NCBI GenBank assembly: GCA_000091205.1
Contig: AP006501.2
DNA length: 64,000 bases
Strand: one strand, 5' to 3'
From: Cyanidioschyzon merolae
Lineage: Eukaryota
Shown here: positions 1 to 54,147 of the stretch, one piece after another
Position numbering within the stretch: the stretch's first letter is position 1
How the letters are laid out: the number at the start of each line of letters is the position of its first letter
Made by a program: the position numbers and the translations under genes
The notes under the pieces: generated by a model
What the model was told of the DNA's origin: nothing
What the model saw: the letters and a program-made list of their open reading frames with translations, nothing else
The model's database searches: none

Positions 1-1016
1 TGGGACGTGTGATATCAGCGGTCTCGAGTCACGGAAAAGTGAGAGCGGAAAGGCAGCCTCCGTAGGAGCCGTGCTCTCTCGATCGGGGAACACCCAACTT
101 GTCCGTCTTCAGTTTCGGGCTCCGACTCGATGGGGTACAAGAGGGCATCACACGCCAAAGCAACGAAGCATGCGCTGCGTTCAGCCGTAGCCGCAGGTTC
201 CGCTCCTGCCCCGTTCACGTTTCACCGCTTCTGACGACGCTTATAAAGTCACGGGGGTGGTATCGAGCTGTGTTCTGCATATAATTTTCAAGACAAGGCG
301 CCCGATTCCAAGTGCTCGGTGTCCAGACACCCGCCATATGAGTCAACGTGCATGCTGGTCGATGTCATCATCGGATATGTGCTCAATGAACTTTCCTATT
401 TAGGTAGCTCGCAAACTCGACGGACGCAGCCCTTCATGCATTCAGAGTATACGCAATCCCAAGCGCCCATCCCTTCTGTAAGGACCAAGTTTACGGCGAG
501 GACGCCAAAACGTTGCAGGAAATGCACGTGAACGGCTCCCGGTATAGGTGTGTACTGGACTCGTTGGAACGGAGCCGCTCGAACTGCCACATATCGTCTG
601 CGAAAGTGAAACCGAAACACCGACTAGGTATGAGTCAGCGATATCTGAGGCGGCTTTGACACACGTAAGCCGCCTACGCAGCGCACGTCGCACTGTTGTG
701 TTCGGGATGAAACTTCCCCAGCTGGGCTGGGTGGCACTCAGAGAGCCACCCAGTCTCGTTTACGCTATGAATATAGAATTGGTATCGGCGGGATCCGTAT
801 TCGTGCCTTCTAGAAGAGGCTGCGAAGCGGGTACGGCACCGGCGCAGGAATGGAGCGCATGCTTTTCCGCATATCGCGGAATAAAGCGAAACGGGTCCAT
901 TTTGCACACGCAGGCTGAACGATAGTCTTTCAAGTGAATCTCGTTTCATTCCCAGTTGCTGTGTATATTCGGCGGTCGAAACAAATATGAAATGAACACC
1001 ATGGATCGTTGACGAA

Positions 1017-1661
1017 TTGCCTGAAGGATATCTACACATCTTTACTGAACAATGCAAAGAGGGCTGCATTCCTCCTTCGGATTCGTCACACCACAGTACT
1101 CTGATGGTTGACGAGCACAGAAAGAAACAAGTAGATGCGCTGCATGCCAAAACCCGGTATTCACAAAGACTGTTTGCGGTCAATGGGAGACAACGACCTG
1201 TTGTTCACCTTACGGGAGATGAAAGCGACAATAGTAGCCACCATGGGCGTCTCTGTTTCTCGACAGCTCATTCGTATGGTCTCGAAAACACTGGGATACA
1301 ATCGCAAAAAAAGAGTCCTTGTTCAACCACGGCCATTTTCCACCGAAATCGCAACCACAACAAAGATCCTGAAAAGTCACTACCGGTATGAAGCAGAGGG
1401 ACGTGGGTTTGTTTTTTTTCCAGTCGGTGAAACTTCCTTCGGACGAAACGATCGGTGCGTATATGGGTATTCAGGGGCGATGGGCGCCCGGTCTACGTAC
1501 GATCGAAGTCGAAGAGAACGAGGATAACATCGTCTGCTCTAGCTGCAATGGATTCATTTGGTGGCCACAGTTTCGTTCGCAGAGAAGCCACATACCATAG
1601 CACCCTTTTCGTCGATTCATTGAAGACTGTTCTTCGACGCCTCACGGGGTCCTTCTATTAA
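1017..1661 (+). pseudogene. Tc1/mariner-like DDE transposase, N-terminal part only (HTH plus start of catalytic core), frameshifted
   Basis: ORFs 1017-1391, 1135-1527 and 1455-1661 in three frames align to Tc1 transposase. The HTH block SVS..R.L.......GY.RKK..L.....P matches Tc1 LSVSCRTVRRRLLEVGLRGCVSRKKPL. FVFFPVGETSFGRNDRCVYGY corresponds to Tc1 VVFSDESKFELFGSDGRQYVRR. ITSSALAAMDSFGGHSFV corresponds to Tc1 TVKFGGGSVMVWG. Frameshifts occur between blocks and the first catalytic Asp context is degenerate. Confidence 0.5.
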
Positions 1662-2032
1662 GCAACCTAGTGTTTGACCATTCCAGTGGCGTTCCAGCTT
1701 TTGCGGATTCTATCTGGTAATATAGCTGCTTTTCATTTCTCCGCACACTCTGTGGTTCATGCCCATCGAAGCACCGTAAGCTGTCTTATAACGTAATGAT
1801 CGCTCCACTGGGCGAATCACTGATGCGTTTAGTACACGGTAACACTCCGAGGCACGTGCTGTCTTTGTTTCGCAAACCCTTCTCCTTCCGGGAAGGTCCT
1901 CGTCCAAGGGCATAGAGAACTGCGTTTATTTCGAAGAAATAAGAAACCTGAGGGGCGAGCTGAGGTGTGCGCACTTTACCAGGTCGCGTTTGAGAAACCC
2001 CAGCGCAGCGCTTTGGCGATAGAAACGCACGC

Positions 2033-2230
2033 GGAGCTGGCGGAGCACCAAATGGCACAGAGGGCACGCGTTCGAGGACTCCCTGCATTGGTGACTTCAA
2101 CCAGTGGTAATACATGGAAGGAGTTCTTGAACTGAGACTTCAACGCTGCAATTAATAGCAGAAGATATGCGATACTGAAGATGAAACCCACGGAGCTGAC
2201 GTGATCCAGCTTTGTGGAGCAGCATCTCAA
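2033..2230 (+). pseudogene. Fanzor/TnpB C-terminal (RuvC-III) fragment with an in-frame stop
   Basis: The plus-strand frame reads LPALVTSTSGNTWKEFLN*DFNAAINSRRYAILKMKPTELT. This aligns with the element-B ORF GLLALVSTTPNGKKLMEFMNRDFNAAINIRKYALMEKRPPELT. The Arg codon of the RD motif has become TGA. Confidence 0.5.
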
Positions 2231-2367
2231 GGTCGAATTGCATCAGGAGAAGTTGATGCCAGTGGTAGGTGGCCAGTCAAAAAACGCTGGGAGGCGTCTA
2301 TGAGAAGGTGGATATATGTACCCTACATGGTGGTGGGGCATTATTTGTTTCACTGACTGTAGCGTAT

Positions 2368-3117
2368 TGGTCACTTTTCACTGTCATGAACGACAGGAAC
2401 TTTTGCGTGCCTCTTCTGTGACTGCTTCCTTTTCCTCGATCCCCGATCTGTGGATTTCAATACGCAGGTCTCGCTTGTCGATCCAGCTCCGCTATCAAAG
2501 AATTTGACGCCCAGAGTGAAGCTCCCGTCTATGCTTCGCTTGGCATTGTCGATCTCTGTGTATACAGCGTCGGTGCGACCCTCGAAGCGCTTGCTCGTCC
2601 GTATGGTCAAGTGTTCCCAGGGGTGTCCAGTGCACCTCCTCCTCCTCAGAGCGCCGTCCTGCCGAACGTTAACGCTTGCTATGTCGCTCGGTACATGCCC
2701 CTGACTGATACGGAACGCTGCCATCGGCGCCCGCACTCCGCTCCCGAGTCCGATGCCGTACCCTACGACCACGAGCTTGTTCTGGGCAACGCTCTCGGCG
2801 AGTGCGCTACCCGACGCACACGAGAGCGCTCACTGTCCCATTCAAAAACGTGTTTGTGGGAAGCGGTGTCGCTCATGGTGAATAAGCACCGAGCGGGAAA
2901 TCCAGGATACGGAACAAGTCGAGCGATATCGATCCGTCTCTGCGCTCTTCGAATAATACCTTGTCGCGTTTTTTTGCACTGGAAGCGAATGCTGCGATGG
3001 CTCAAGCCCAAGTCCGAGACCTTTCCTATGGAGAGAAAAGAGGCAGGGAGCGTCGAAGAGCGTGTCCTCTGACAGGTATGATGCTGCTCGGGATTGTCGA
3101 TTTATCGATTGCTACAA
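2368..3117. repeat. Direct repeat, copy 1 of 2 (about 750 bp, near-identical to 5587-6336)
   Basis: A sequence beginning ggtcacttttcactgtcatgaacgaca and ending gattgctacaaag recurs 3219 bp downstream. The embedded ORFs (2371-2772 minus, 2611-3072 plus) differ from their counterparts by only a few residues, implying about 97-98% nucleotide identity. No protein domain was recognised. Confidence 0.85.
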
Positions 3118-3703
3118 AGAAGGGCGGATTTTTCAACTAGAAGGATATCCATCGTCTGACGAAACAAGTTCTGTAAACTTTCTGAACGAGCTTGTGAACA
3201 AATCGTTGAAGACGCCGTGGAGGTGTTTCCTCGACAATCCAGCAGCGCGCATAGCAGCGCGCGCGAGTTGCCTTGAAACAGAAAGATCGATGACTTGGAG
3301 AATATTTAATTGCTTCAATTTACACATCATGAATGGAGAAGACTATAGTCTTCTCCATATGCATTGCATCGCGATATCACATAAATGACAAAATTTTGTC
3401 CGAGAACGTCGCATATTGCCTTTTATTCCGATGACGTGACAAACTCCAACGACGAAGAGGCCAATGATCTACATCGAAAAGACGACCGAGAATTCCAAAT
3501 TTTCGTGCGAATCGGTAAATACCCTATTCCTACACATCGAACGTTGAGGATGTGCATCCAAAACAAGTTCGGAAAGAAACCTCAAGGCGGGAGCGAACCA
3601 TGGAGTTCAGGGCTCCACGTTCATCCAACAGAGATGCAGGCTGGGAAGCGGTTGCACCAGGTCGTCTGCAGAGCCTGCCCCATGCTCTCTTCAAATCGAA
3701 TGT

Positions 3704-5002
3704 TTAAATCGACTGACAGATACGCAGCAGCCGCACTCCGTTACCAGAAGCGAGACGCTCTAGCCGCCATAGAGTATGCGCATCGACTGCGTGGAAAACC
3801 TTGTGATCCTGGAAGTCCTTGAGTATTCGTTGTATTTCGTCGCTGTGAAACCGCGGTATTTCCTGGATCACTGGTTGCAAATTCGACGGAAGTTCCTGGT
3901 CCACCCATCGGGCAGCCTGACTGCCGTCAGGGTCCCGCTGCATTGCCGGTGTTGGTCGGTGCAGAACAGAGCCCACAACGCGAGACGCCCGCACACGTCC
4001 GAGGCCCCGAGCGCTGGTCTCCGCGCATAGCACCAGTCCACGTCGCATTCGAGCCCCGAAGCGCGTAAACATGTTCCATGCGTTCAGCGGACGAAGGCTA
4101 CGAAGCGCACTGGCATGCAAGAAACGTCCCTTTTTCTGCGGATGCCGAATGCTCGTGAGTGCATTCAACAAATTCCAATCATCGATTGCAAAGAGCACAG
4201 GAACCTGTCGGACACATTGAAGTTGGCGCAGAAAAAGCCGATAAGTCCGACCAAAGGCATCCAGGTTCAACTCGGCGAGCTCACCTTCCAGTCGGCGGCC
4301 AGATTGCAAGCAGGCATCCACCAGTCCCAACAGGTTGGTATGCTGATCAGTAGACGTGGCGGTCTGGCGCGCCACATCTCCGTCCCGCGCTTCATCATCG
4401 AGGTCACTCTCCCGAAGCAGTTGCTCCGTAGGAAGACAGGTAATGGATTCCAGCGTTCGGGCATGGACCTGGCGACACGCCTGCAGGCTGTCAAGCACCA
4501 GACGAGCCTGATCGAAGAAAAGAGGTTCGCGCAACAAGCTCGCACTCCGTGCACCTCGAGGTCGCGGTGTTAGAACCACGTCACAAGAGTCGCGTTCATG
4601 TAGCCAGTGGTACAGGTTTGGCAGATAGAACACCAGCCAGTCCTGCTCACGAGCTCGCTCGACAGCGTGAAATAGACTCGTGCTCTTCCCGGAACCTGGT
4701 GGGCCACGAAGCAGCACACATCGCGTACCTTGCCAGAGCGGATCAGATCGCTCTTGAACCAGCTTCCACACGTCTGCGTCTGCCTGACGCCAAAGCAGTT
4801 TCAGGGCAGTTTTCGTTTCTGTACTGTGCCGTTTGCTGGCGTCTGCGCCGTGGACCTCCGTCCAACGAGCGAGCACCCCTTTGGGCCAAGCCTCCGGAAC
4901 CAGACGGTGACTCAACACTCGAAACTCATTAACAACAGCTGGGGTATGATACAAACGACCAAGCAGCAGACACGTGCTGAACACTGGCCTGCAAGCCCGC
5001 AT
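3704..5002 (-). CDS. DAP3: Mitochondrial ribosomal protein S29 / DAP3-family P-loop protein
   Basis: The 432-aa ORF contains LLRGPPGSGKSTSLFHAVERAREQDWLVFYLPNLYHW. This matches the DAP3 P-loop region [34 protein letters not shown]. Protein length is appropriate for the family. Confidence 0.65.
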   Translation of the reverse strand: MRACRPVFSTCLLLGRLYHTPAVVNEFRVLSHRLVPEAWPKGVLARWTEVHGADASKRHSTETKTALKLLWRQADADVWKLVQERSDPLWQGTRCVLLRGPPGSGKSTSLFHAVERAREQDWLVFYLPNLYHWLHERDSCDVVLTPRPRGARSASLLREPLFFDQARLVLDSLQACRQVHARTLESITCLPTEQLLRESDLDDEARDGDVARQTATSTDQHTNLLGLVDACLQSGRRLEGELAELNLDAFGRTYRLFLRQLQCVRQVPVLFAIDDWNLLNALTSIRHPQKKGRFLHASALRSLRPLNAWNMFTRFGARMRRGLVLCAETSARGLGRVRASRVVGSVLHRPTPAMQRDPDGSQAARWVDQELPSNLQPVIQEIPRFHSDEIQRILKDFQDHKVFHAVDAHTLWRLERLASGNGVRLLRICQSI

Positions 5003-5586
5003 GAACAGCTTGAAGCTTGGTGCTCAGGGAGCGTTCCCCGGAACGTATACTTGCCCAGTATTGCTGGGGCCGCCTCGCCAGTCGCCCCACGAGCACCGGG
5101 ACCCTGCGTTGCGATGTTGCGATCCCCGGGGAGCATTACTGAATGAGAGCAAACAAGGATCACCCAGCGCGAAGCTGTAAACGGTATCTAGGAAAGCCCC
5201 GGGTCGTCCGTTCATGACCTTGTCCACTTCATGGCGCGTAAAGCAGACATCCTTCAGGAGAACATGAGGCGCTGACGCGAGCCTGCCGCTGGTCGAGTCT
5301 GCCAGAGGGCCTAGCGCGCTGCTGCGAGCGTTTCACGCGGGCACCAGGGCTTTTCGATAGACTTGAGGACGTCGGCTGGAAGCAAGTCTGCCAGTGATGG
5401 ACACGAGGTGAGTGCATGAGATGTGCGAGTATGCCAACTCAAGCTGGAGCTGTTTCAGAGACAACCCAGACGACATATTTTCCATGGAATAGATGCAATA
5501 ATCTGGATGCGCATACAACATCAGCTGTTTCAGAATATGGAGGAAATGGGTCCAGCGCGCTCCCTCGGGCGTACATACGAACATTT

Positions 5587-6336
5587 GGGTCACTTTTCAC
5601 TGTCATGAACGACACGAACTTTTGCGTGCCTCTTCTGTGACTGCTTCCTTTTCCTCGATCCCCGATCTGTGGATTTCAATACGCAGGTCTCGCTTGTCGA
5701 TCCAGCTCCGCTGTCAAAGAATTTGACGCCCAGAGTGAAGCTCCCGTCTATGCTTCGCTTGGCATTGTCGATCTCTGTGTATACAGCGTCGGTGCGACCC
5801 TCGAAGCGCTTGCTCGTCCGTATGGTCAAGTGTTCCCAGGGGTGTCCAGTGCACCTCCTCCTCCTCAGAGCGCCGTCCTGCCGAACGTGAACGCTTGCTA
5901 TGTCGCTCGGTACATGCCCCTGACTGATACGGAACGCTGCCATCGGCGCCCGCACTCCGCTCCCGAGTCCGATGCCGTACCCTACGACCACGAGCTTGTT
6001 CTGGGCAACGCTCTCGGCGAGTGCGCTACCCGATGCACACGAGCGCGCTCACTGTCCCATTCAAAAACGTGTTCGTGGGAAGCGGTGTCGCTCATGGTGC
6101 ATAAGCACCGAGCGGGAAATCCAGGATACGGAACAAGTCGAGCGATATCGATCCGTCTCTGCGCTCTTCGAATAATACCTTGTCGCGTTTTTTTGCACTG
6201 GAAGCGAATGCTGCGATGGCTCAAGCCCAAGTCCGAGACCTTTCCTATGGAGAGAAAAGAGGCAGGGAGCGTCGAAGAGCGTGTCCTCTGACAGGTATGA
6301 TGCTGCTCGGGATTGTCGATTTGTCGATTGCTACAA
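5587..6336. repeat. Direct repeat, copy 2 of 2 (near-identical to 2368-3117)
   Basis: Same sequence as 2368-3117 with a few substitutions, for example ORF 5830-6291 against ORF 2611-3072. It is in direct orientation and lies on the other flank of the DAP3-like gene. Confidence 0.85.
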
Positions 6337-6984
6337 AGCGAAGAGTCATCGACTTTTCGGAAAACATCGGTTAATTGGCCTGATAGATTCACAGATCTTT
6401 CATCATGATCACTGAGACGAGACTCCAAGGGATAGGTCGATGTTTGTCCTCGTCAATGTCGCAGCGCGAATTGTTGCTCCCGCAAGCTGCCCTGAGACAG
6501 AGGGATAAAAAACTACATGTACGCATGATTTCAGCATGCTACAAGTAATAAAAGGAGCATAAATGAGACTTGTTCATAGCAACTGACGAAACATATCTGC
6601 TACTTACATAAACCTCGTTCAAGATCAGCGCGAGTCACCGCAATGCTCGTGATGCTACGAAATCCAGCGGCAACGCGTCGAATGAGTCACGCTGAAAAGA
6701 CAACTGCGAATCCTAAATCTACGTAAACATCTGTCATTTCGATGCTGTACACATAGAAAAAAACCCGGAAAACCTTCGTACAGGAGCAGAGTAAGCATTT
6801 CCGCGTTCTATATGCATCCGTAACCAGTGTCGCACGCCCATCGCTCGTGCAAACATCGTGCCACAGTAGACCGCAGACACAGATGCTCCAGGTTGAAGAC
6901 GCTCACCTACACTACATGCAGTGCTTCATATTACCAGATCCATAAAATATTTAGGGAAGGGCTCGGATACCTCACCGCAGGTTC

Positions 6985-9900
6985 ATGAACCTGCGTAGAG
7001 CTCATAGAGAGCGCATGGCAAGGGGCATCGATCCCGTGGACGCTGGCGTCCGCTGCGGATGTCCTGCACGTGAGGCACCGGCAACGCGTTCCGTGCTGAA
7101 GCGCCAGCACAAACGTCCGTTGACGCTGAGCTGTATCATGTTCTCGGGACGGAGAGAGCGTGACCCAGCAGAACCCAGAGATCAGCTTCAAGGAGATAGC
7201 TATTATACAGAAGCCGGTAGCACGGAGCAGAACCCGCTTGTCGACCTGGACCTTGTGCGCAGTCGCCGTTTGGCGCGGTTTACCACCAAGTCGACGGCAG
7301 CGGACTCGTCGGGTGCTGTCGCTGAAACTTCTGCAACTGCTGGGCAGCACTCGAGCCGACCGGCTTGTGAGCGACCAGAGAATAAAACTGGGACTGAAGA
7401 GCGAGTCTTGCATCGGGCGGAAAGTGAAAAAGCACCGAGTGTGGAAGCGTGCCCGGCACCACAACGAAAAGCAGCCCCGGCTGTTTCTGAAAAGGAACTC
7501 GTGCACCAGAGCCTCTTGCGCATTTTGAATCTCTCGAGTGCGGAACTAGAAGAAATCTGGGCGAGAGCTGGTGTCGCTGCGTCGCAAGCGCCGACGCACC
7601 TAACCGTTGCTGAACTCGATACGGTGCTGGCGGAACGACTCCAGGATCCTCGCATCGTAGATGCGCTCTCCTACTTGATACTTTGCTACCAACGACTCCG
7701 TCAGGAGCTGGCCTCAATCCAAGCGGCTCGTTCACAGGTGTTGCGTGAGAGCCTGGGCAATGCGCTACCGCTTGTTGTGACCTATGCGCGAACATGTCTC
7801 TGGGAGCCGCACCTCTTCGTCTCAGGTCGTCGTTGGCCAGCGGAGAGCGCTCCACACGAGGCTGCCGCATTATGGCTCGTGGAGCAGTTTCAAAAACAGC
7901 AGATACCAGCAGAGGGCGATGCAGCAATCCTGCCACCAGCCATGTACGCGGACCTGGTGCACTGGTGGGCTCGCGACGCACCCGACGAACTCGAGCAACT
8001 GTTTCCAGTATTCTTTCGTGGCCTGGTGGAAAGCGCTCGTGCGGAACTGGATCAGATTTTTCTGCAGAGGTCACAGCTGTCATGTTTACGAGCTTTGGGA
8101 AGCGCGCTAGAGCCGCATGAGGCCTTGAACGCATTCGTGTCGATGGCGGATTTCGTTGCAGTGGATACCCGAAACAACGTCCGGTCGCTTCTTGGGCCAT
8201 TCCTGACACCAACAGCTCTACACTATGAGGACGATCGCGTTTCAAGGGCGCTCTTGCCGAACAACGTATCAACCGAAAGCGAGACCGCTGAGCGGGACGC
8301 GATCTCGGCTGTGCAGTGGTCTCTGGACACGCTACGCGACGGCTTGTACCGGCTCTTGATGCGACTTTTGCGCGCTGGACCGTATCCTCGTGAGCGAGTT
8401 CTCACCTGGCTGGCGAACCAGCTTAACCAGAATCGGGAAAGGATGAAACTGCAGGCCGCAACCGCAGAAACATGCACGGACGGGTACATGCTGAACCTTA
8501 CGGATGTCCTGCTGCGCCTTGCAGCGCCTTTTGCTGACCCGCGCTCCCCCAAACTGCAGTCCATTCCAATCAAATGTCTATACGATCATCATCGAATCCG
8601 CTTGGCGGAGCAGGAGACGCGCGTCGGATGCGATTATGCGGAAGCGCAGCGTCTACAAGCCGACTATTTGCAGCAGCAGCAGCAGCAGCAGGCCGGGAAT
8701 CCCTACGCATTCATTCCCGAATGTTTTTTCCTGACGACGCGTGCACTTCAGCTCACATATCTGCCATTTTTGCAGTATTATCGAGAGGAAATCTTGCATC
8801 AACTGCAGCGGCTTGAAGAGATGCGCGAGGAACTGAATCTCGCGCAACAGCAACAGCAGCAGCAACCGGTATCTTCGATGCAGCAACTGGAACAACAGCT
8901 GATGCGAAGCCAGTGTGAGCGAGCCATCGCCGGTCTCCGACGTGATCGCCAATCCTGCCTCTTCTATTTGTTCGATAGCGGCTCACTGGATCGTCTTTTG
9001 CAATTTTTAGCTGCGCTGGCGGCATACATCATGCAAATAGCAGGTTTTGCCGGACGCTTACCGCTGCCTGCTCAGGATGCGGCTTCTGTACCCCGGGAGT
9101 ACGCCTTGTTACCCGAGTCAATTTTTGAGCTGCTGGCTGAGGTGCTCCAATCGATCGTACAGCTGCGCTTGCCCGTGCCGCTGACCACGGTGGGCGCCCT
9201 CTTTCCCCAGTTTGTAGAGTTCGCTACCATGCTGCTTTCGAATACGTTCTACTTGCGGAACATACATATCCGCGCACGCTACGCTGAATGGCTCGCACAA
9301 ATGTTCCCGGCGATAGGGAACGAGCTGCGCCATGCGCTCGGAGCAGTGCATCTACCGCCCGAATTCGAGGCCGCTTTTCTCGGCAATGAACAGGTCGTTG
9401 AGAATCTGCCACCAGCTCTGATGCAGCTCTATATCGATGTGGAGCGTACTGGAACGCATACACAGTTCTTCGACAAGTTCTCGATGCGATTCTACATGAG
9501 TGAGGTACTGGTGGCCATGTGGCGGGTCCCGGCGTATGCGCGTGTGCTCCGACGCCTCGCCTCGACGCGAGAGGGACTTTTCGTACATTTCAGCAATATG
9601 CTCTTTAATGATGCCAATTTCTTGCTTGATGAGTCGTTGCAAGCCCTGGCAGAAATCCACGAACTCGAGCGGCTTCTAGAGCCGAATTCGATACAGGGTC
9701 AGGCTCTGGAGCCGCAGGCTCGCGAAGAGAAACGCAAGCGCCTGCTTCAGTTGCAGCGTCAGGCCAAGTCGTTCAACCAGCTTGCCAACAGCAGTATTCG
9801 CTTGATGGTGACGCTAACCGAGGAGGTGCGGCAGCCGTTTTTGCGACCGGAACTGCTGGATCGTCTAACGAACATGCTGAACTATTTCTTGGTGGCACTT

Positions 9901-10458
9901 TGCGGGCCGCGTTGCGAGAACCTCGTTGTTCAGGAGCGTCATCGGTACGAATGGGAACCGCGCCAGCTATTATCCCAGATCCTGCGGATTTATCTGTCGA
10001 TGCACGATCCGCTTCGGGATCGTGACGGCACCAGACGCTTCTGTTGCTCAATAGCAGCTGACGGGCGCTCGTATCGACCGGAGGTTTTCGAGCGGGCGGC
10101 GCAGATAGCTGCAACGCGGGGCCTCTTGACGCCTGCCGAGTGCCAACGATTTCACGAACTCGTCGAGTCCGTGGCGATCTGTGCTAAGGAGCTTGTTGCC
10201 GAGGATGAGGAGCTCAGCGAAGCACCCGACGAATTCCTAGATCCGATTCTGGCAACCCTGATGCAGGATCCCGTCATGTTGCCATCGAGTCGCAAAATCG
10301 TGGATCGCTCGACCATCGTGCGACATTTGTTGAGCGATCCGCACGATCCATTCAACAGACAACCGCTGAGAATAGAGGACGTGATCCCGCAACCAGCGCT
10401 CAAAGAACAGATTACGAGCTGGCTACAAGAGAGACAGGGAACGCGGCGTGTCTCGTGA
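6985..10458 (+). CDS. UFD2: Ubiquitin conjugation factor E4 (Ufd2-type, C-terminal U-box)
   Basis: The 1157-aa ORF ends with a U-box: [65 protein letters not shown] long helical Ufd2-core-like region lies upstream, with poly-Q tracts encoded by CAG runs at 8671-8691 and about 8846-8866. The exact start Met is uncertain; alternative Mets lie at codons 11 and 52. Confidence 0.85.
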
Positions 10459-10464
10459 GCGGGT

Positions 10465-10466
<2 letters not shown>

Positions 10467-10492
<26 letters not shown>
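10467..10492. repeat. (CTG)n trinucleotide microsatellite just 3' of the Ufd2 stop
   Basis: gctgctgctgctgctgctgctgctgct read directly from the sequence. Confidence 0.9.
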
Positions 10493-10495
<3 letters not shown>

Positions 10496-10989
10496 TATAT
10501 CGGCGAGCGCGCGTACTGGACGAGATATCTGGTTTCGGGGAGCTCGCTGCCACTGCGATACACTAAGCTGATCCGACCTGCGTAAACTGACCGAGAAAAT
10601 GGAGCAACGGCACACCATGATCGTCGACAAATGGACCGGACAGATCGTCTCCGGTGTTGATACACGGCGCTCTCGTGAATCTGGATTCCTGACCTGGACC
10701 GCACGAGTGCGCTGTTCCAGGCGGGATTCCCATGCCCTCTCACCTGGCTACTGTTTTTTCTCATCGCAAGTCTTCGGCGTTTCCGTACAGTGCCCAAACG
10801 GAGTACGAAACGATGACCACGAAACTTTGCTCGATACAAAGCCAGTCGTCGCTCCAAAAGCACACGGCGATGCCGGGTATTGATCCAAGCGTCCAAGTCC
10901 GGATGCGGAAGGAGCTCGTGTGTATTGCTGCAGGTGGAATCTCGATATTGCAAGCATCTCACCTGTTATTGCCTCGCGGTGTGAGGTTC

Positions 10990-13745: not shown

Positions 13746-14311
13746 TGCGGAATGATGGACACAATCTCGATTACCAATGTCCGTCGTGCAATCTGGGATT
13801 CACGGACAATGGAAACCTCATCGAAAAATTCACCAGTGAGATCAACACTCGGGCGATCGTGCGCGCCATTGCCAGTGGCGGACACCGGATCGCACATGCG
13901 CAAACAGATACCCATATACTTATGGAGGATCGTAACTTGCTCAATTTCTATCCAGGTACTTATATATACATAAATATATAATATGGCACACCATTGGAAA
14001 TCGAATCGAAAGCGGGAACGGCCGCGGGATCCATGCGCCGATGCGCCAGGCGTACGGGCGCACGACCCGCAAGGACATCGATGCATGCGCATCGCGCGAC
14101 CGTGATGCCGCGTTTGCCGCTTCCCAGATGCGCCGTCTGCGGAATCTTTCCCTGCACAGATGCGCTCGTGTACGCCGATGATGCACCTCCACCGTGATCC
14201 AAAAACATGTGATATGCAACGTTTTTTTTCGTTGTTGTTCTGCGAACGATACGTTCACTCCTATTCGAAGAAAAAGTCACTTGAATCAATCGATCTGAAA
14301 GCGATTCAACA

Positions 14312-17103: not shown

Positions 17104-17947
17104 AAGAACGGAAGCGCAGCGCGATCAGACGGTACCGAGAGCGCCCGTGGCTATCGCGCTCGTCGGGGTGCAGAGAAAACCGCGGCGAGGCGCGCGGATC
17201 GGCGATTTGAATTTCCTGTGGATGGTGTCGTATGGATGCATGGGAGAAGGTGTCCACGAATTCCGCCATTGTTGTTGGCAACCGGGACAGCAGCCACCAC
17301 TTCAATCCAATATTGTCGAATGCCAGTAGTTAGAAGCGGGATTGGCTTTCAGAGACCATGATTCATTCATGTGAGGCTTCGGATTCTAAGCGTACCGTTC
17401 GTGGTCTTTGCGATTGGCTCACGCGAACGTCGCGCTGTTGTGCTGAAGCGGCCCGATATCACTCGGTTGTGCAGTTTCCGATCTTTCGATATACCTGCGT
17501 CAGATGAAAATGGGAATGAGAATCATAAGATCTGCTCGCACTTCTCGGTTTTACGGACTATTTATTCGATTTGTAGTTTTAGTGGTATAAGTGCAGCAGT
17601 GAGGGTTTGTGGACTCAGAGGTAGTTTTTCGGATTCTTTGTCGTGTTTTTCAGAGTGAATTGCTCGGCGCGTTGCGCTTGAATTCATTACGTCATTATCC
17701 GTACGATCATTCGGGACGCGGTCGAACGCGGTCTTATGAAACAAGAGATTAGAGTATCCAGTGTTTGGGTAGAAGCCTCCACGCTTCTCCGCATCCTTGC
17801 GTGTCGCTTGACCGGCTCCTGCGTTCTTCAAGTTTTCGATCACTCTGTGCCAAGACAACTGGCGGGTGCAGCAATTTGCGCCGTTCGACTGATAAGTGAA
17901 AATATGGCCGGGAACACGATAAACATTTCACGACAATGTAGGGAAAA

Positions 17948-18256
17948 TTAGTGTCCATTCGCAGATATCTTGCAGCTTTTTGCTGGCCGGCCATCAGCAA
18001 CCGGTTTCAGTGTAGCCAGACATGCTTCGAGCCTGAGAGGCTGCCCCATAAAGTTAGATAGCCTCAGCTCCGCGGGTCTCGTCCTGGGCACCGCGCATCC
18101 CCTGATATCGATGGTGGCAAGGAAGTCACGGTTCACGAACTCCATGCAGGCACTGCCGCTGGTTGAACGCACCTCTGCAAGGAGTCCCCGAACTCGTATC
18201 TTCTGTGCCACTACAATCTCGTCATCGTGCTGTCGGGCAAACACATTTTTTGTCAT
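17948..18256 (-). pseudogene. Fanzor/TnpB C-terminal (RuvC-III region) fragment, copy 2
   Basis: DEIVVAQKIRVRGLLAEVRSTSGSACMEFVNRDFLATIDIRGCAVPRTRPAELRLSNF aligns with copy B KVRGLLALVSTTPNGKKLMEFMNRDFNAAINIRKYALMEKRPPELTRELF. The NAAxNI core is mutated. Confidence 0.5.
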
Positions 18257-18508
18257 CTATAGCTTCTCTTCTTTTCCTGTTTTGCTGCTTGCGCCTCTTC
18301 GCTCAATGGTTGGCGAGAAGGGAATTTTTATTGGCTTTTTTTTGTCGAACCCGGCGATGACGGCCCTCCAGGATCCTCGACTTGCATGTCCATACCTCTC
18401 ACATGGATTTGTTATCTTTGATAATGAACGCAATTCTTTGTGCCCTTAGGTGAGAACCTTCTCTGAGGGTGAAGGACCTGCGGTGGAAAGTCGACATTTA
18501 CCCTGGTG

Positions 18509-19246
18509 TCACTGTGTGCTGAACGCTTCAGCGATTCGCCAAACGGTGCGGTCATTACGTTTCAGGATGGAAAACACTCCTTCGACAGGGATGAACTTTC
18601 GTGAGCACGGAGATATGATAAACAGATCTGTCACGATAGAATCGCCAAGAGCTCGAACGCAAAGGTAAGAGCAATCGTTCCGTTGTTCAATAGAAGGACG
18701 GCGCCGGACGTCAGCGAAAAGTCTTCGATGATTCGACAAAGTGGCTGGTGCTGTTTTACGAGCCCCCTCTGCACGAACGAACCTGTGGCCGCGAACTGAA
18801 TCCACTGCAGCTAGAACAGATGATGATATCCTCATTCTCGTTCAGTTCGATAGCACATACAACGGGCTCTCTCTAAGTACATACCCATGGACGCCCCCAC
18901 CGTTTCGTCCGAAACAAGTCTTATTGACCGAAAGAACGGACCGACGTTCCTGTACTTTATATCGATCGCTGGGTTTCAGGAATACTGCAGTAGCTGCACT
19001 TTCGGAGGACGAAGGCCGTGCGTGAACTCGGGCTCTTCTTTGGCAACAGTATCCCAGTGTTTTCAGGATCACCGGAACAAGCTGTTGAGGAACAGAGACC
19101 CCTGTGGCACCTACTGTATTTGCTTTTGCATCCCTTAAGGCGGCAAACGGGTCGTATGCTATCATGTACCTCAACCATTCTTCGAGAACATCAGTTTTTA
19201 TTATGGAGCGCATCTCCTTCTGTCTATCCCAGTGTTCCTCAACCAT
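18509..19246 (-). pseudogene. Tc1/mariner-like transposase N-terminal remnant (copy 2), frameshifted
   Basis: ATGVSVPQQLVPVILKTLGYCCQRRARVHARP aligns with the Tc1 HTH region. RSVLSVNKTCFGRNGGGVHGYVLRES aligns with Tc1 VVFSDESKFELFGSDGRQYVRRP, where the catalytic Asp has become Asn. SSVLAAVDSVRGHRFV aligns with Tc1 KFGGGSVMVWG in a different frame. Confidence 0.45.
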
Positions 19247-19574
19247 CTGAATACTGTTGTCTGACTGGCCTGAGGGAAAAGGGCAGTCCTCCTTTACTAT
19301 CTCGTTGCGAATATATATCCTACAGAAAATTCATTTACGATCTGTTCGGTACATTGCGTCGCGGTGTCGATCCCATGCCATACACTGCGAAAAAGCATCC
19401 GATGACACACAGCGGACATGGAACCGAATTCAGCTTGGAAGACAATACATCGATCAGGTGTCGCTCGTTTCAGCTGTGAACCGTGCGCGTCAACGGCGCT
19501 CTTGTTCGAGCAACAGCATACGTAGGAGCGAGCCTTGGACAAGGCTTCAGCGTTTCGGCTCGTTTTCACAGTAC

Positions 19575-37983: not shown

Positions 37984-38254
37984 TCCTGCGTTCTCTGTAA
38001 CAGCTCTAGGGCCTTCTGCAAGTGCCAGGAGAAGCCCACTGGCAGAGCGGGGTTCACGAAACCGAAAAGGCTACGCTTTCCGACCGATTCCACACGGTGG
38101 AACGTTTCAAGCTCGCAACAGTGCCCCTGGTTTCCTGTTCTCCAACAAGTACTGGGTCAAAAACCGTACACAAAAAGCACACACCGCCGGCAACAAACGC
38201 TTTTCAAAAGAAAGACGCTGCCGCCAGCGGTGTACAGTAGTCGCGACCGGCGCC

Positions 38255-42315: not shown

Positions 42316-44151
42316 AGCGCGTCTGCAACCATCGCCTCGATGTTCGCATCATTCGACCATGCGAATCGCTGGATGCCGTGGACTAGGGCGCTGGGGGCAG
42401 TGACGCGTTGGCCTGAACGCTGCCACCACAATGTTGGTGCCGGTCTGAACGATTCAGGATGCAACGCAAGCACGATGAGCAGCTGTAAGGGACGCGAGAT
42501 GCCCTGTCGCTCTGCGGCAGGTTGCGATAGCCTGCTACGCGCGTCCGCATTATCGTTGGTTGCCTCGGGTGGTGGTATGCATATCGCGAGCGCTTCATTA
42601 TAGCGGGTTTGCATGGATATTGGCGAGCTTGGCAACTCCGTTTACGAAACGATCACCGCTTCGGTGTACGCTGTACTGGACACATTCGGTGCCGCATGCG
42701 ATACCCCTGAGCCGATGTACCCTGGACGCACCGCTCTCGCGTCGGTACACGATACCCGTTTCAGGTGAAGCTAAAACTCTGCGCTGCTTGCTTTCTTCGT
42801 GTCTGGCGACTCTTCTCTTTTCTTTCTGCGGATGGTATTTTAGATATACAGACTCGACATTCCAAGCAAATCCATATCGGATTGCGGGTGCAAAAGCGGA
42901 TCTAGGAGTCTCGGTCGTACGTTCGGAGTCGGCGCTTGGATGATCGGCCGCTGGAACGCTAGAAGGCAGTGGAATTCAGATGAGGTGCAGCAACCTCAAA
43001 AAAGCGGGATTGTAAACTAACCGATATCACGAGTCCAACAGCTCTCTACAAGCCTATACGCTTATCCATCGCTTGCATCCTTCGGTTCTTCGAGTGCTCT
43101 TTTCCAAGGCAGACCGTGAGCGCACCCAGAAAAGCTCAGCTGGATGCACGAGTGAATCTACTTGACATCATCATTTGGCGCCACGATCACAAGCATATGC
43201 TCGTCATTGACTTACATTTGTACTGCAAATAATCGCTGGCGTTCGAAGGACAAATACTTCGCGCTTTGCGGTTACTGGTGAAACGGCATTCGCCAACAGC
43301 AGCGTCATACCGATCACGTGATGGATACTCCCAGGCGCTCTACTCTTCGTCTGGCAACGGATACAGTCTTGCACTCAGACTTGAGTCATCATCGGTGTTA
43401 TCACTTGTTCTAGTCGAGCGTGCGTCATCGTTTTGCACGAAGGCGGCACAACGCGGGGTCGGAGACACAATGAATATCTGGGAACACCCGACAGCACCCA
43501 AGTGTCAACGCGGTGAGGCACACAACGATGCACTGCACTGAAAAAGATGCACACGGCAAGCGAGACGCTGACCGCTACGTCTTGCCTATGCGATCAATGC
43601 ATAGAGAACAGCTGGAAATAGCGTCATCGGGATTGGAACGCTACCATCACCATCCCTCGACTGCTGACCGCTGAAGTGCAGGCGTATCAGATACCGACCC
43701 ACGTAAAAACCGTTGATAAGGGAGACGAACACGAACCAGTCTCCGATAAAGCACACAAACGCTGGTGTTCTTGATGCCGGAAACAGACCTAAGCTTGACA
43801 GTGAATGCCCGAGTTCGTGGACCTGTTCGCATTCATACCAACAGGGCTACGAAACATCGATAGCCTGGAGATTGTAGAAGCGCGCCGTTCACCGCCTCTG
43901 AAAGTGAATATTGTGGCACAGGAGTCTTGGACCTCTGATAGGTGACGGCGATGGGCTTCGTGGCACCTTTTTCTCAGAGCGTACGCCACTGGTACCTGCA
44001 GGAAACGAATCAGCGGAGCTTACAGCGTCAACGACCTAGAGCTTCTCTGGGAATCCGATGTAGATGCTAACGATGAAGCGCACGCTGGAGGTCGGCGACA
44101 CGTGTCCGTTTCTCTGGTCGCTGGAACGCAGATCGCAGCTCAGCGCGTGGC

Positions 44152-51761: not shown

Positions 51762-52777
51762 CTTCCAGAGGGCGTTCCGAACGACTACGCGCGTTCAAAA
51801 CACACCCGCGCTGACAACTGACGGACGCGAAACCCCGTGAAGCACCTACCTTCCTTGGCTCCGTTCTTTCGGTTTAGAAAGCGGGTTCTCGCAAAACTGC
51901 AGGGTGCTCCGCCAGAGTCCGGAGAAGATTCACCTAGTAACACAGCTGAAATGGTGCACGAAGAAACCTGCAGTACAGGCGTAAAGGCAGCCGCAACCGA
52001 TATGACGAACGATATCCACACCGTATCCTGGTGACACACTGCGACTTGTTGCGAGTTGCGGTCGATGTGGTGACCCCTGCACCATGAGCCAACTTGCCAC
52101 TGGAACTGAAACCGCCCGCAGGTAGAGCGGATCGTCGCTAGATGCTCTTGCTCGACGTCGATTAGGCGTGAAGACCTGGCGACTCTTCCCGATGGTCCAC
52201 GCCAACGGAGTCGTGAGCTGCACGAGTGCTGCTGAACAGGAGCGTTCAAATAGCGATGCCGCGCCCAGTATATGCCTTGCGTTGTCTTATCTTCGTGTCG
52301 GAGAACAGGCAGTTGTACAATCGGGAAATGCAGCGCGTTCAGGTAGAGCGTCTTGCTGCTCGCGCTATGTATCGACTTGGATGACCATGCGAAGCCGCCT
52401 CTGCATACACCATCATATCAACCTTAACCGGTACGCGCTTGTCTGCATGCCATGGAAAAGGCCCAGCTACCGAACTCGAGAATGGACCCTGGATTGTGTG
52501 TCTCTAACTGATGCATCCAACAGCAGCGTTCGCGGCTTTCTCTGCGACCGCTTCCTCTCTTTCTCGCTTACCGCTTGCGCTGAATACGGAGCTCCATCTT
52601 GTCCGTGCATCTTCGTTATAAGCAGTCGATGGATGTTGATCTTTGTGTTCAAGTCCTGATTTTGCTGCTTTCGGTAGTTGCCAATGCATTCCATGTGTGA
52701 ACGGAAGTTGCGATGTTCATCTTGTTTGTGCACAGCCTGGTTGCGCGCTTTGCAAATGTTCTATTTGGCCGTGGTCA

Positions 52778-52885
52778 GGTGTTCCTATATGTTCACCGTG
52801 TATGCGTATCCTCGGCGCGTCGTCTTGTGGAAGGTGTTCCTATATGCTCACCGTGTATGGATATCCTCGGCGCGTCGTCTTGTGG
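52778..52885. repeat. Tandem duplication, 2 x about 55 bp
   Basis: ggtgttcctatatgttcaccgtgtatgcgtatcctcggcgcgtcgtcttgtgg is followed by the near-identical ggtgttcctatatgctcaccgtgtatggatatcctcggcgcgtcgtcttgtgg. Confidence 0.7.
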
Positions 52886-54147
52886 CGCGTCGACGCGTGT
52901 ATCATCGCTTGGTATACGCTCTTGACGAGTACGGAAAGCTGCCGTCGATGGTCTCTTATGCTTACGCTTCTGTGTGATTCCGTCGGCAGCGACTCTGCTC
53001 GTTGCACACACAAGCGCACGCTGTCCTAGTCGATTGGGAATTTGCGGAACGCGATGCTGTCCACAATGAGACAAGAACCGGAACGAATATCCAGGATGCA
53101 GGAGAGGCTGAGCACTGCCGATCCGTCTACGCTCCATTCTTGAAAAGCGTTGACACACGAATCACTGGAAGAGATCGCTGCGATGAATCAGACTCCAGTC
53201 GAAGATGCTTTCTCATTCAAACAGAAGGGATGGGTGCGTCTAGTCGCATATCCCTTGAGAGGGATTTGCTGCGGTGGAATGCGGTTTTTTGTTAACGGCC
53301 ATGAAAAGAATAAAAAATTCGTCGTTCCAACGGTATCGCTCATTTTTTGGTATGAGAAGTTTGGTGCGCATTTAGCATGAGCTTTTGCACTGGCCATCAA
53401 GCGACGACTTCGAGTTCCTGTCCCCGTCAATCCAGCAGCGCGAATTGCTGCGCCCACATGCTGCCTTGGTACAGAGAGAACCCAAGCTTAAAGAATGCGT
53501 AATCGAACACGCTTCAGGCATGGAAAGGAGAATACTTGACGCTCGTGCGAATGAGTGTGTTCATGATTCCGGTTCTGACACGATGCCGTGCTCGAGAACA
53601 TCGCGAATTATCTTGACTCCTAAATCGTATTCTATTCCAGCTGAGAAGCGTCAAAAGAGTCACTCCGAACAGACTTCAGAGCATCCGAAACCTACGTATG
53701 CGTTCGTTAACTACTATCCGTATTCCGCCAATGTCCAGATTGTGTATCAGAAAAGTTTTGGGAAACATCGCAAGGCAGGTACACAGCGCGTCCTCCAATG
53801 TTTTGTATTCAAGAGGTACGTGTAATCTGTCCATATATTCTAATATTGGGTATAAAGGAACAGACCCTGACATACAGTCTGGAGAATTTGTCCGTATTAG
53901 TTACAAAATATACATCTATGTATCATGACATAGAGCCTGCAACGAGGGCGCCCATTTCCCCATACATCAGCGGTGTCGTCGATGACTCGCCGCTTCGCCA
54001 GCCGCGGACGCCGAACTCATTCTGCCAGCCTATTCAAGAGGGAAAGAAAGCCCAGTGTACTTCGGTTGCTGGAGAACCCACACGTGGCGTCAGCGGTAAC
54101 GCCCAAAGGCCTCTTTCGGAAGCAAGGGCATCCGCAATAAAATTCGC

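What the first reader, a model, noticed from the sequence alone, without database searches (positions are those of the whole stretch)
2368..6336. Near-identical 750-bp direct repeats bracket the single-copy DAP3/mS29 gene
The copies at 2368-3117 and 5587-6336 differ by only a few substitutions. They lie in direct orientation with 2.5 kb between them, which holds the minus-strand DAP3-like gene. Copy 1 begins about 110 bp after the composite transposon relic ends. Possible explanations are the LTR pair of a degraded retroelement whose interior was replaced, a recent segmental duplication, or an assembly artefact. Direct repeats this similar permit recombinational deletion of an essential mitoribosomal gene, which is unusual to tolerate.
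Basis: seen in the sequence. Interest (0 to 1): 0.5.

Follow-up and report, generated by a model that had tools for sequence, protein, structure and literature searches.

The report
Gene-converted old repeats flanking the mS29 gene

Summary
Window 2369-3119 and 5588-6338 are direct repeats of 751 bp with 8 mismatches and no gaps. They flank CMS040C (mS29/DAP3) of Cyanidioschyzon merolae 10D, chromosome 19. Four independent metagenome contigs span both copies, so this is not an assembly artefact.

It is not an LTR pair. There are no TG..CA ends, no TSD and no retroelement remnant, and C. merolae is reported to have no LTR elements. The interior is a host gene whose position (E4-mS29-CBS) is ancestral.

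It is also not a simple recent duplication. Homology continues in register to the right of both copies at only about 51-57%. The block belongs to a modular non-coding family (L/C/R) with five members in the window. In the R module the two members are no closer to each other than to the other members.

Across strains, the core has 0 fixed differences between copies and 18 shared polymorphisms, and lineage-specific variants occur in both copies. The adjacent 301 bp has about 147 fixed differences. The core evolves at least as fast as other intergenic DNA.

Best reading: non-crossover gene conversion homogenises the C modules of two neighbouring old repeats. Crossover deletion would remove mS29 and is presumably purged by selection. 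This is a known process and of modest interest.

The parts
2369..3119 (+). Copy 1 of the 751-bp homogenised core. It is the C module of family member 1.
   Evidence: It differs from 5588-6338 at 8 sites with no gaps. It has no Pfam, Rfam or tRNA hit. All 4 substitutions inside its 153-aa + strand ORF are nonsynonymous.
5588..6338 (+). Copy 2 of the 751-bp homogenised core. It is the C module of family member 2 and lies in the divergent mS29/E4 intergenic region.
   Evidence: It is fully spanned by metagenome contigs L001, L007-L010, L012 and L022.
3120..3640 (+). Hypervariable spacer (3120-~3220) plus the R module of member 1. It ends 64 bp before the mS29 stop codon.
   Evidence: In-register identity to 6339-6639 is about 51%. 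The R-profile hit is 3211-3639, E 1e-107.
6339..6838 (+). Hypervariable spacer plus the R module of member 2. It ends about 147 bp upstream of the E4 ATG.
   Evidence: The R-profile hit is 6430-6833, E 8e-102. About 147 fixed differences separate it from member 1 over the first 301 bp in all strains.
921..2368 (+). It is contiguous with copy 1.
   Evidence: nhmmer aligns 921-2350 to 19447-17914 (-), E 3e-155. A six-frame Pfam search of 1-2400 found nothing.
3704..5002 (-). mS29/DAP3 gene (CMS040C), single copy, between the repeats.
   Evidence: Pfam PF10236. Exact match to BAM82687.1. The gene order E4-mS29-CBS is conserved in Cyanidiococcus, and mS29-CBS adjacency holds in a more distant relative.
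5003..5587 (.). Unique spacer upstream of mS29. It is presumably the promoter / 5' UTR region (inference).
   Evidence: nhmmer finds no other copy in the window and no homology in the outgroups.
52397..53830 (+). Family member 3 (C-R), diverged.
   Evidence: nhmmer aligns 52505-53783 to 2378-3595, E 2e-64. Its C module is 57-61% identical to the core.
42745..43882 (-). Family member 4 (C-R), diverged.
   Evidence: R-profile E 1e-93.
17470..19447 (-). Family member 5 (L-R, lacking the C module).
   Evidence: R-profile E 2e-102. The L part aligns to 921-2350.
6985..10458 (+). Ubiquitin conjugation factor E4 B (UFD2 core + U-box), the divergent neighbour of mS29. Context only.
   Evidence: Pfam PF10408 and PF04564. 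Exact match to BAM82688.1.

Best explanation
Two neighbouring members of an old, non-coding, modular dispersed-repeat family lie in the same orientation on either side of the mS29 gene. The family has modules L, C and R and was not detected in the outgroup loci examined. Member 1 (921-3640, L-C-R) sits between the 3' ends of mS29 and CBS. Member 2 (5550-6838, C-R) sits in the divergent mS29/E4 promoter region.

Their R modules and spacers have diverged to about 40-57% identity, like any other pair in the family. Their 751-bp C modules are kept about 99% identical by intrachromosomal (or sister-chromatid) non-crossover gene conversion, i.e. concerted evolution.

Crossover or single-strand-annealing between the two copies would delete the 2.5 kb that holds the single-copy mitoribosomal gene. 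Such products are presumably lethal in this haploid alga. Only non-crossover outcomes survive, and the repeat pair persists.

Shown: the repeat anatomy, family membership, the sharp step in identity, the lack of constraint, variant sharing across strains, absence from the outgroup loci, and ancestral synteny of mS29. Inferred: the recombination mechanism, that mS29 is essential, and whether homogenisation has been continuous or began with one replacement event.
For: (1) Step in identity. The core is 743/751 identical, but the next 301 bp, in exact register, is 50.8% identical.

(2) Family context. There are five R modules, four C modules and two L modules in the window. In R, m1-m2 identity is 57%, the same as m1-m3 (58/52%), m2-m3 (60/50%) and m1-m4 (57/52%). 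In C, m1-m2 is 99%, against 57-61% to m3 and 34-47% to m4.

(3) Homologous replacement, not insertion. The core-to-R spacing is identical in both members and nearly so in m3.

(4) Population data. Among 11 copy-1 and 16 copy-2 sequences from 10D and independent metagenome contigs, the core has 0 fixed differences, 18 shared polymorphisms and 13 private ones. Paralogs within a genome differ at 2-8 sites and orthologs between genomes at 0-13, so there are no copy-specific clades. In the extension there are about 147 fixed differences.

(5) Phasing-independent test. 10D has G/G at 2601 and T/T at 2637 where every other genome has A/A. L022 has T/T at 2581 where L008 and L009 have C/C. About 0.04 such sites per genome pair are expected from parallel mutation.

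(6) No constraint. Strain divergence is 0.8-1.7% in the core, 0.3-0.4% in the mS29 CDS and 0.5-1.4% in most other intergenic segments (about 3% in R2). No coding, Rfam or tRNA signal was found.

(7) Only this locus carries the near-identical sequence in the data searched.

(8) Outgroups keep E4-mS29-CBS synteny with short spacers and no L/C/R homology or flanking repeats.

(9) Literature. 10D is a haploid clone with highly efficient homologous recombination. Direct repeats flanking a marker excise it by intrachromosomal recombination in this strain (PMC8504449, PMC13353863). [quoted passage not shown]
Against: Most population sequences come from short-read metagenome assemblies. These can collapse or mis-phase a 751-bp repeat. 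L007's two copies differ at only 2 sites and may be partly collapsed. The fully robust evidence for post-divergence exchange therefore reduces to a few sites (2581, 2601, 2637), and 2601 and 2637 could reflect a single event.

It is unclear how conversion could start between sequences that were only about 57% identical. Continuous homogenisation since an ancient family burst is needed instead, and this is not shown.

Identity does not fall off gradually from the boundary. It is lowest (39%) in the 100 bp next to the core. That fits a discrete replacement event better than a slowly shrinking conversion domain.

The GC excess of the core (55-56% against 51-52% in the C modules of m3 and m4) is small and not diagnostic of biased conversion.

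That mS29 is essential in C. merolae is assumed, not tested.

A genome-wide count of the family could not be made. The 10D genome is not searchable with these tools beyond this window.
Confidence: 0.72

Rival explanations
1. A single recent copy-and-replace event overwrote one C module with the other shortly before the sampled strains diverged. It could have been one long conversion tract, or a template switch during break repair or replication. Since then the two copies have simply drifted apart, and the apparent sharing of polymorphisms comes from mis-phased or collapsed metagenome assemblies.
For: The boundaries are abrupt, with the lowest identity right next to the core. Paralog divergence in 10D (1.07%) is about equal to strain divergence (0.8-1.7%). 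L007's copies are suspiciously alike. The 24-mer scan shows that assemblers usually resolve only one copy.
Against: 10D, a finished Sanger genome whose copies are clearly not collapsed, shares G/G at 2601 and T/T at 2637 against A/A in all other genomes. L022 and L008/L009 differ T/T against C/C at 2581, although each keeps 6-7 paralogous differences. The same phase was recovered in three separate assemblies, L008, L009 and L022. There are no fixed differences among 27 sequences.
Confidence: 0.17
2. The 751-bp sequence is a functional element needed in two identical copies around mS29. It could be, for example, paired boundary or loop-anchor elements, a duplicated promoter/terminator, or a non-coding RNA gene. 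On this view selection, not recombination, keeps the copies alike.
For: The copies sit at 585 and 586 bp from the two ends of the gene. Both copies are present at the same sites in all sampled strains.
Against: Orthologous copies differ between strains by 0.8-1.7%. That is as fast as or faster than most other intergenic segments and 3-5 times faster than the mS29 CDS. Purifying selection therefore cannot explain 99% paralog identity. There is no Rfam hit at E<=1. The ORFs inside carry only nonsynonymous differences. Cyanidiococcus keeps the same gene order without the element.
Confidence: 0.04
3. The copies are the LTR pair of a degraded retroelement whose interior was replaced by the mS29 gene, or two insertions of a young 751-bp mobile element.
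For: Two direct repeats of LTR-like length and high identity lie next to other repeat debris.
Against: The ends read GGTCAC...CTACAAAG, not TG..CA. There is no TSD for the pair or for either copy, and no TIR longer than 6 bp. The interior has only a DAP3 domain, and mS29 lies between E4 and CBS in the outgroups too. Nozaki et al. 2007 found no LTR retrotransposons in this genome. The C module is an integral, in-register part of older C-R elements, not a nested insertion. No further near-identical copies were found.
Confidence: 0.02
4. The pair is an assembly artefact: a falsely duplicated or mis-joined segment in the reference genome.
For: None beyond the general suspicion that attaches to near-identical repeats.
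Against: Contigs L007, L008, L009 and L022 come from four separate metagenome assemblies. They are collinear with window 1-14000 at about 99.1% identity and contain both copies. L001, L010 and L012 span copy 2 and enter copy 1. Many 2.4-3.1 kb contigs stop at or just inside the repeats. The reference is a finished, gap-free assembly (PMC1955436). The two copies have different flanks and 8 real differences.
Confidence: 0.01

Closest known systems
Concerted evolution by ectopic (interlocus) gene conversion between closely linked paralogous repeats. Examples from my own knowledge, not tested here: the arms of human Y-chromosome palindromes, duplicated tuf genes in bacteria, and the model of Walsh 1987 and Teshima & Innan in which duplicates either stay homogenised or escape once diverged.
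   Same: There is a sharp-edged tract of near-identity embedded in older, diverged homology. No fixed differences separate the paralogs, polymorphisms are shared, and lineage-specific variants occur in both copies. The short distance (3.2 kb) favours exchange.
   Different: The substrate here is non-coding dispersed-repeat DNA with no detectable function, not genes. The copies are direct repeats flanking an essential gene, not palindrome arms. Whether conversion is continuous or began with one event is not resolved.
Direct-repeat 'pop-out' (loop-out) recombination used for selectable-marker recycling in C. merolae (Takemura et al. 2018, as summarised in PMC8504449; tUBQ repeats in PMC13353863).
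   Same: The geometry is the same: two direct repeats of a few hundred bp flank a 2-3 kb segment in the same haploid, recombination-proficient strain. Excision of the intervening DNA has been demonstrated experimentally in that setting.
   Different: In the engineered case the deletion is selected for. Here the deletion would remove mS29 and is presumably selected against, so only non-crossover products remain. No deletion allele was seen or could be searched for.
Solo-LTR / LTR pair of an LTR retrotransposon.
   Same: Two direct repeats of several hundred bp at about 99% identity.
   Different: There are no TG..CA ends, TSD, PBS/PPT or gag/pol. The interior is a syntenic host gene. No LTR elements are reported in the genome. 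Membership fails.
The 'novel interspersed repetitive element' of C. merolae: 253 copies, mean 3.2 kb, a truncated ORF weakly like WSV486, about 5% of the genome, transcribed (Nozaki et al. 2007, PMC1955436).
   Same: Both are interspersed and intergenic with multiple diverged copies per region. The L-C-R composite (2.7 kb) is of similar size. L-like fragments lie next to or inside the ORF-bearing repeat X at 11183-13713 and 38739-40746.
   Different: No ORF or protein similarity was found in L, C or R. Five members in 64 kb is denser than 253 copies in 16.5 Mb would predict.

Membership tests
LTR retrotransposon (LTR pair) | Two long direct repeats of high identity | tested here: met
   751 bp, 98.9% identical, direct orientation.
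LTR retrotransposon (LTR pair) | 5'-TG...CA-3' termini on each LTR | tested here: not met
   The ends are GGTCAC... and ...CTACAAAG.
LTR retrotransposon (LTR pair) | 4-6 bp target-site duplication flanking the whole element | tested here: not met
   The flanks are ...GTAGCGTATT and CGAAGAGTCA.... Only a 4-mer is shared, at non-corresponding positions.
LTR retrotransposon (LTR pair) | Internal gag/pol (RT, integrase) or remnants of them | tested here: not met
   The interior holds only the mS29/DAP3 ORF (Pfam). That gene is syntenic with E4 and CBS in the outgroups.
LTR retrotransposon (LTR pair) | The host genome contains LTR elements | not testable with these tools
   Nozaki et al. 2007 report that all 26 retroelements are non-LTR and that no LTR retrotransposons were found.
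Paralogs under concerted evolution (interlocus gene conversion) | A tract of near-identity embedded in much older homologous sequence, with sharp edges | tested here: met
   Identity is 99% over 751 bp and then 39-57% in register. The boundary is the same in all strains.
Paralogs under concerted evolution (interlocus gene conversion) | Paralogs do not form copy-specific clades across lineages: few fixed differences and many shared polymorphisms | tested here: met
   0 fixed, 18 shared and 13 private sites; distance matrix. Caveat: the data are short-read metagenome assemblies.
Paralogs under concerted evolution (interlocus gene conversion) | Lineage-specific substitutions present in both copies of one genome | tested here: met
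   2601 and 2637 in 10D; 2581 in L022 against L008/L009. About 0.04 such sites are expected by parallel mutation.
Paralogs under concerted evolution (interlocus gene conversion) | Identity not explained by purifying selection | tested here: met
   The core diverges 0.8-1.7% between strains, at least as fast as most other intergenic segments and faster than the CDSs.
Paralogs under concerted evolution (interlocus gene conversion) | GC enrichment of the converted tract (biased gene conversion) | tested here: inconclusive
   The core is 55-56% GC, against 51-52% in the C modules of m3 and m4 and 45-49% in R. The difference is small and there is no polarised substitution data.
Paralogs under concerted evolution (interlocus gene conversion) | Direct observation of sequence transfer between the copies | not testable with these tools
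   This needs a marked allele or mutation-accumulation lines.
Dispersed (transposon-derived) repeat family | Multiple homologous copies at unrelated loci, in both orientations | tested here: met
   Members lie at 921-3640, 5550-6838, 52397-53830, 43882-42745 (-) and 19447-17470 (-).
Dispersed (transposon-derived) repeat family | Absent from the orthologous sites of an outgroup (insertion polymorphism between species) | tested here: met
   nhmmer finds no L/C/R hit at E<=1 in the Cyanidiococcus locus L020 or in L021. The spacers there are 1.3-1.4 kb, or 60 bp in L021. Loss by divergence cannot be excluded.
Dispersed (transposon-derived) repeat family | Transposon hallmarks: TIRs, TSDs, a poly-A tail, or a transposase/RT ORF | tested here: not met
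   No TIR longer than 6 bp, no TSD and no A-tail at the R end. No Pfam hit in six frames of 1-2400. tblastx frames are inconsistent between members.
Simple recent segmental duplication | Uniformly high identity over the whole homologous block, falling to non-homology at both ends | tested here: not met
   Homology continues for about 500 bp to the right at only 40-57%.
Assembly artefact | The arrangement is not reproduced in independent assemblies | tested here: not met
   Four independent contigs span both copies.

The most novel reading that the evidence does not exclude
The two identical C modules may be more than passive recombination substrates. They could form a functional pair around mS29. 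One possibility is a natural pop-out / re-integration cassette that releases a 3.2-kb circle carrying mS29, allowing copy-number change. Another is a pair of chromatin boundary elements insulating mS29 from the E4 and CBS genes, with homogeneity favoured by selection. More modestly, L/C/R may be an undescribed, hallmark-free, modular non-coding repeat family. It fills much of the intergenic DNA in this 'repeat-poor' genome and evolves in concert wherever members lie close together.
Probability: 0.06. Interest if true: 0.55.

Novelty: new member of a known kind. Interest (0 to 1): 0.24.

Why it matters
C. merolae is used as the 'simplest' photosynthetic eukaryote, and its genome is usually described as almost free of repeats.

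This locus shows that old non-coding dispersed repeats make up much of several intergenic regions in the window. It also shows that two members 3.2 kb apart exchange sequence, which gives a natural read-out of ectopic gene conversion in a haploid alga with very efficient homologous recombination.

There are two practical consequences. Targeting constructs or PCR assays designed around CMS040C or the neighbouring E4 B gene (BAM82688.1) can recombine with or prime on the wrong copy. Short-read assemblies break here.

The finding does not reveal a new kind of element or mechanism.

Tried and rejected
- **Rfam and tRNA.** Rfam on 1-8000 at E<=1 and ARAGORN on the whole window found nothing. An RNA-gene explanation was dropped.
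- **Pfam.** Searches of the ORFs inside the repeats and of all six frames of 1-2400 found nothing. tblastx between family members gave only short hits in inconsistent frames. A hidden coding gene was dropped.
- **Codon periodicity.** A test of the 301-bp extension gave 49/43/61 matches per phase with stops in every frame of copy 2. The extension is not coding.
- **Metagenome 24-mer scan.** An invariant 24-mer of the core returned only two contigs, both already known. That collection holds few of the relevant assemblies, so this is weak evidence on copy number.
- **Protein-database proxy.** Searching with the spurious 153-aa repeat ORF gave one cluster of 9 members, all on mS29-locus contigs. 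No extra near-identical copies were found.
- **Outgroups.** nhmmer with L, C, R, m3, m4 and a C-R profile against the Cyanidiococcus and distant-relative loci found nothing.
- **Literature.** A search for CMS040C found no paper.
- **WSV486 link.** I considered spending the last large protein search on the ORF of repeat X to link it to WSV486. The published similarity (BLASTX E 1e-5 to 4e-2) would not be significant in a database of 5.8 billion sequences, so I did not run it.
- **R-motif hairpin.** The GCAGC...GCTGC stem in the R motif is not kept in member 1, so I did not pursue it.
- **Symmetry of the repeats about the gene.** The 585/586-bp spacing on the two sides has no support beyond the numbers, and I treat it as coincidence.


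Full report
**Identity of the window.** The ORF between the repeats (3704-5002, minus strand, 432 aa) matches Pfam DAP3. It is exactly BAM82687.1 / CYME_CMS040C, called mS29 in UniRef, of Cyanidioschyzon merolae 10D. It lies on a 1,282,939-bp record, which I take to be chromosome 19 from the CMS locus prefix. The next ORF (6985-10458, plus strand) is ubiquitin conjugation factor E4 B, BAM82688.1. mS29, E4 B, the MFS transporter and RPN6 have consecutive accessions BAM82687-BAM82690. Nothing is therefore annotated as a protein inside the repeats.

**Check of the observation.** The repeats are real. 2369-3119 and 5588-6338 are 751 bp long, in direct orientation, with 8 substitutions, no indels and an offset of 3219. 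Apart from two tandem arrays, this is the only near-identical pair in the window.

Assembly error is excluded. Metagenome contigs L007 (46 kb), L008, L009 and L022 come from four separate hot-spring assemblies. They are collinear with window 1-14000 at about 99.1% identity and contain both copies. L001, L010 and L012 span copy 2 and stop inside copy 1. Many 2.4-3.1 kb contigs stop at or just inside the repeats, as expected for a true repeat. The reference itself is a finished, gap-free genome (PMC1955436).

- Homology does not stop at 3119/6338. At exactly the same offset and without gaps, the next 301 bp are 50.8% identical (null 24.7 +/- 2.5%; any offset shifted by 1-6 bp gives background). 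nhmmer aligns the two blocks over about 1,043 bp and onward to about 3640/6838.
- The block is one of a family. Further diverged copies lie at 52397-53830 (+), 43882-42745 (-) and 17905-17470 (-). The 'transposon relic' left of copy 1 (921-2350) is homologous to 19447-17914 (-), directly adjoining that last copy.
- I therefore distinguish three modules: L (921-2350), C (2369 to about 3220, including a ~100-bp hypervariable spacer) and R (about 430 bp).
- Member 1 is L-C-R, members 2, 3 and 4 are C-R, and member 5 is L-R.
- A profile of R finds exactly these five copies (E <= 1e-93).

**The decisive comparison.** In R, members 1 and 2 are 57% identical. That is no more than member 1 against 3 (58/52%), 2 against 3 (60/50%) or 1 against 4 (57/52%). 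In C, members 1 and 2 are 99% identical, while C of member 3 is 57-61% and C of member 4 is 34-47% identical to them.

So two members that look as old and as independent as any others share one freshly identical segment. The distance from the core to the R motif is the same in both, and nearly so in member 3. The segment therefore replaced a homologous predecessor in place; it was not inserted de novo.

**Not an LTR pair or a mobile 751-bp unit.**

- The ends read GGTCAC...CTACAAAG.
- There is no TSD for the pair or for either copy, no TIR longer than 6 bp and no A-tail.
- Pfam finds nothing in the repeat ORFs or in six frames of 1-2400.
- Nozaki et al. report no LTR retrotransposons in this genome.
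- mS29 was not carried in. Cyanidiococcus yangmingshanensis (VWRR01000016.1) has E4-mS29-CBS-Sec1 in the same order and orientation, with spacers of 1.3 and 1.37 kb. A more distant relative has mS29 and CBS 60 bp apart. Neither locus has any L/C/R homology or flanking repeats.
- In C. merolae the same spacers are 2.0 and 5.3 kb. The repeats were gained around a gene whose position is ancestral.

**Not selection.**

- Between 10D and three strains the core differs by 0.8-1.7%.
- The mS29 CDS differs by 0.3-0.4%, the E4 CDS by 0.5-0.95%, and most other intergenic segments by 0.5-1.4% (R2 reaches about 3%).
- All four substitutions inside the 153-aa plus-strand ORF are nonsynonymous.
- Rfam at E<=1 and ARAGORN find nothing.

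**Evidence for exchange between the copies.**

- Among 11 copy-1 and 16 copy-2 sequences (some partial), the core has 0 fixed differences, 18 shared polymorphisms and 13 private ones.
- Paralogs within a genome differ at 2-8 sites and orthologs between genomes at 0-13 sites, so there are no copy-specific clades. In the 301-bp extension the two copies are separated by about 147 fixed differences, with 0-8 differences within each.
- A test that does not depend on phasing counts sites where two genomes are each 'homozygous' for different bases. 10D has G/G at 2601 and T/T at 2637 against A/A in every other genome. L022 has T/T at 2581 against C/C in L008 and L009, although each of these keeps 6-7 paralogous differences. 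About 0.04 such sites per pair are expected from parallel mutation.
- Alleles at 2815 and 2881 are swapped between the copies in 10D relative to L008, L009 and L022, and that phase was recovered in three separate assemblies.
- Caveat: short-read assemblers can collapse or mis-phase such a repeat. L007's copies differ at only 2 sites and may be partly collapsed. The fully robust evidence rests on a few sites.

**Copy number of the near-identical sequence.** A 24-mer scan of metagenome contigs found only copy 2 in two known contigs. A search of the protein database with the spurious repeat ORF found one cluster of nine variants, all on mS29-locus contigs. There is no sign of a young dispersed subfamily, but the 10D genome itself could not be scanned.

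**Mechanism.**

- Literature basis: C. merolae 10D is a haploid clone with highly efficient homologous recombination. Direct repeats flanking a marker excise it by intrachromosomal recombination in this strain. [quoted passage not shown]
- Inference from this and the anatomy: breaks in one C module are repaired from the other, 3.2 kb away. Non-crossover outcomes homogenise the 751 bp.
- Crossover or single-strand-annealing outcomes would delete mS29, the only copy of a mitoribosomal protein gene, and would not survive. The essential gene therefore stabilises the pair instead of being endangered by it.
- The tract ends where usable homology ends. On the left this is about 16-40 bp inside the element's end. 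On the right it is the hypervariable spacer, which is about 40% identical in all family pairs.

**What remains open.** It is unresolved whether homogenisation has been continuous since the family spread or began with one replacement event. Identity is lowest immediately beside the core, which favours a discrete event. Starting conversion between sequences only about 57% identical would be difficult, which favours continuity.

**Verdict.** The LTR and artefact readings are rejected, and the 'recent duplication' reading is refined. This is a new example of a well-known process, concerted evolution of linked repeats, in a genome where such repeats are little described. Interest is modest.

Noticed in passing
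window 40996-42315 (+): The CDP-diacylglycerol synthase (phosphatidate cytidylyltransferase) protein encoded here carries two C. merolae accessions, BAM82701.1 and BAM81134.1. An identical second gene copy therefore exists at another locus. This gene sits between repeat X2 and family member 4, so it may be part of a recent inter-locus segmental duplication.
   Followed up: no
window 11183-13713 and 38739-40746: A second dispersed repeat family (X) is 74-77% identical between its two copies. It carries a conserved ORF of 221 aa at 11990-12655 (-) and 178 aa at 39717-40253 (-). The ORF is called in all metagenome strains but is absent from the 10D protein set. It may be the published 'WSV486-like' interspersed element. 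L-like fragments lie at 12739-12959 and 38214-38624.
   Followed up: partly
window 16300-17088 (-): A 262-aa ORF with an SH3 domain (Pfam) is present in the metagenome assemblies (cluster of 9 variants; 10D's exact sequence is on 22 contigs). An SH3-domain gene also lies near the Cyanidiococcus locus (L020 1324-2100). It is missing from the 10D protein set: BAM82689 and BAM82690 are the MFS transporter and RPN6 on either side. It is probably an unannotated gene.
   Followed up: partly
window 3226-3285, 6445-6504, 53415-53475, 43155-43095 (-), 17895-17835 (-) (approximate): All five R modules share a conserved motif, roughly TCCTCGTCAATCCAGC-AGCGCGAATTGCTGC...CTGCCTTG..ACAGAG. It lies about 100 bp after a spacer that is unalignable in every pair. 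Its function is unknown. A possible GCAGC/GCTGC hairpin is not kept in member 1.
   Followed up: partly
window 57856-58767 and 59380-59607: A tandem array of a 91-bp unit (10 copies, 98% matches) overlaps long minus-strand ORFs. A 115-bp unit is repeated twice nearby. GC skew is strongly positive here (+0.26).
   Followed up: no
window 2815 and 2881 (and 6034, 6100 in copy 2): The paralogous alleles are swapped between strains. 10D has C and A in copy 1 and T and C in copy 2. L008, L009 and L022 have T and C in copy 1 and C and A in copy 2. This could reflect reciprocal exchange or conversion in opposite directions.
   Followed up: partly
window 3119-3704 and 5002-5588: The core repeats lie 585 and 586 bp from the stop and start codons of mS29, which is almost perfectly symmetric. 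No explanation was found, and it is probably coincidence.
   Followed up: no
window 6339-6984 (R2, upstream of the E4 gene): This segment is the most strain-variable part of the region (about 3% divergence from L007, L008 and L009, against 0.5-1.4% in the other intergenic segments), including a 3-bp indel.
   Followed up: no
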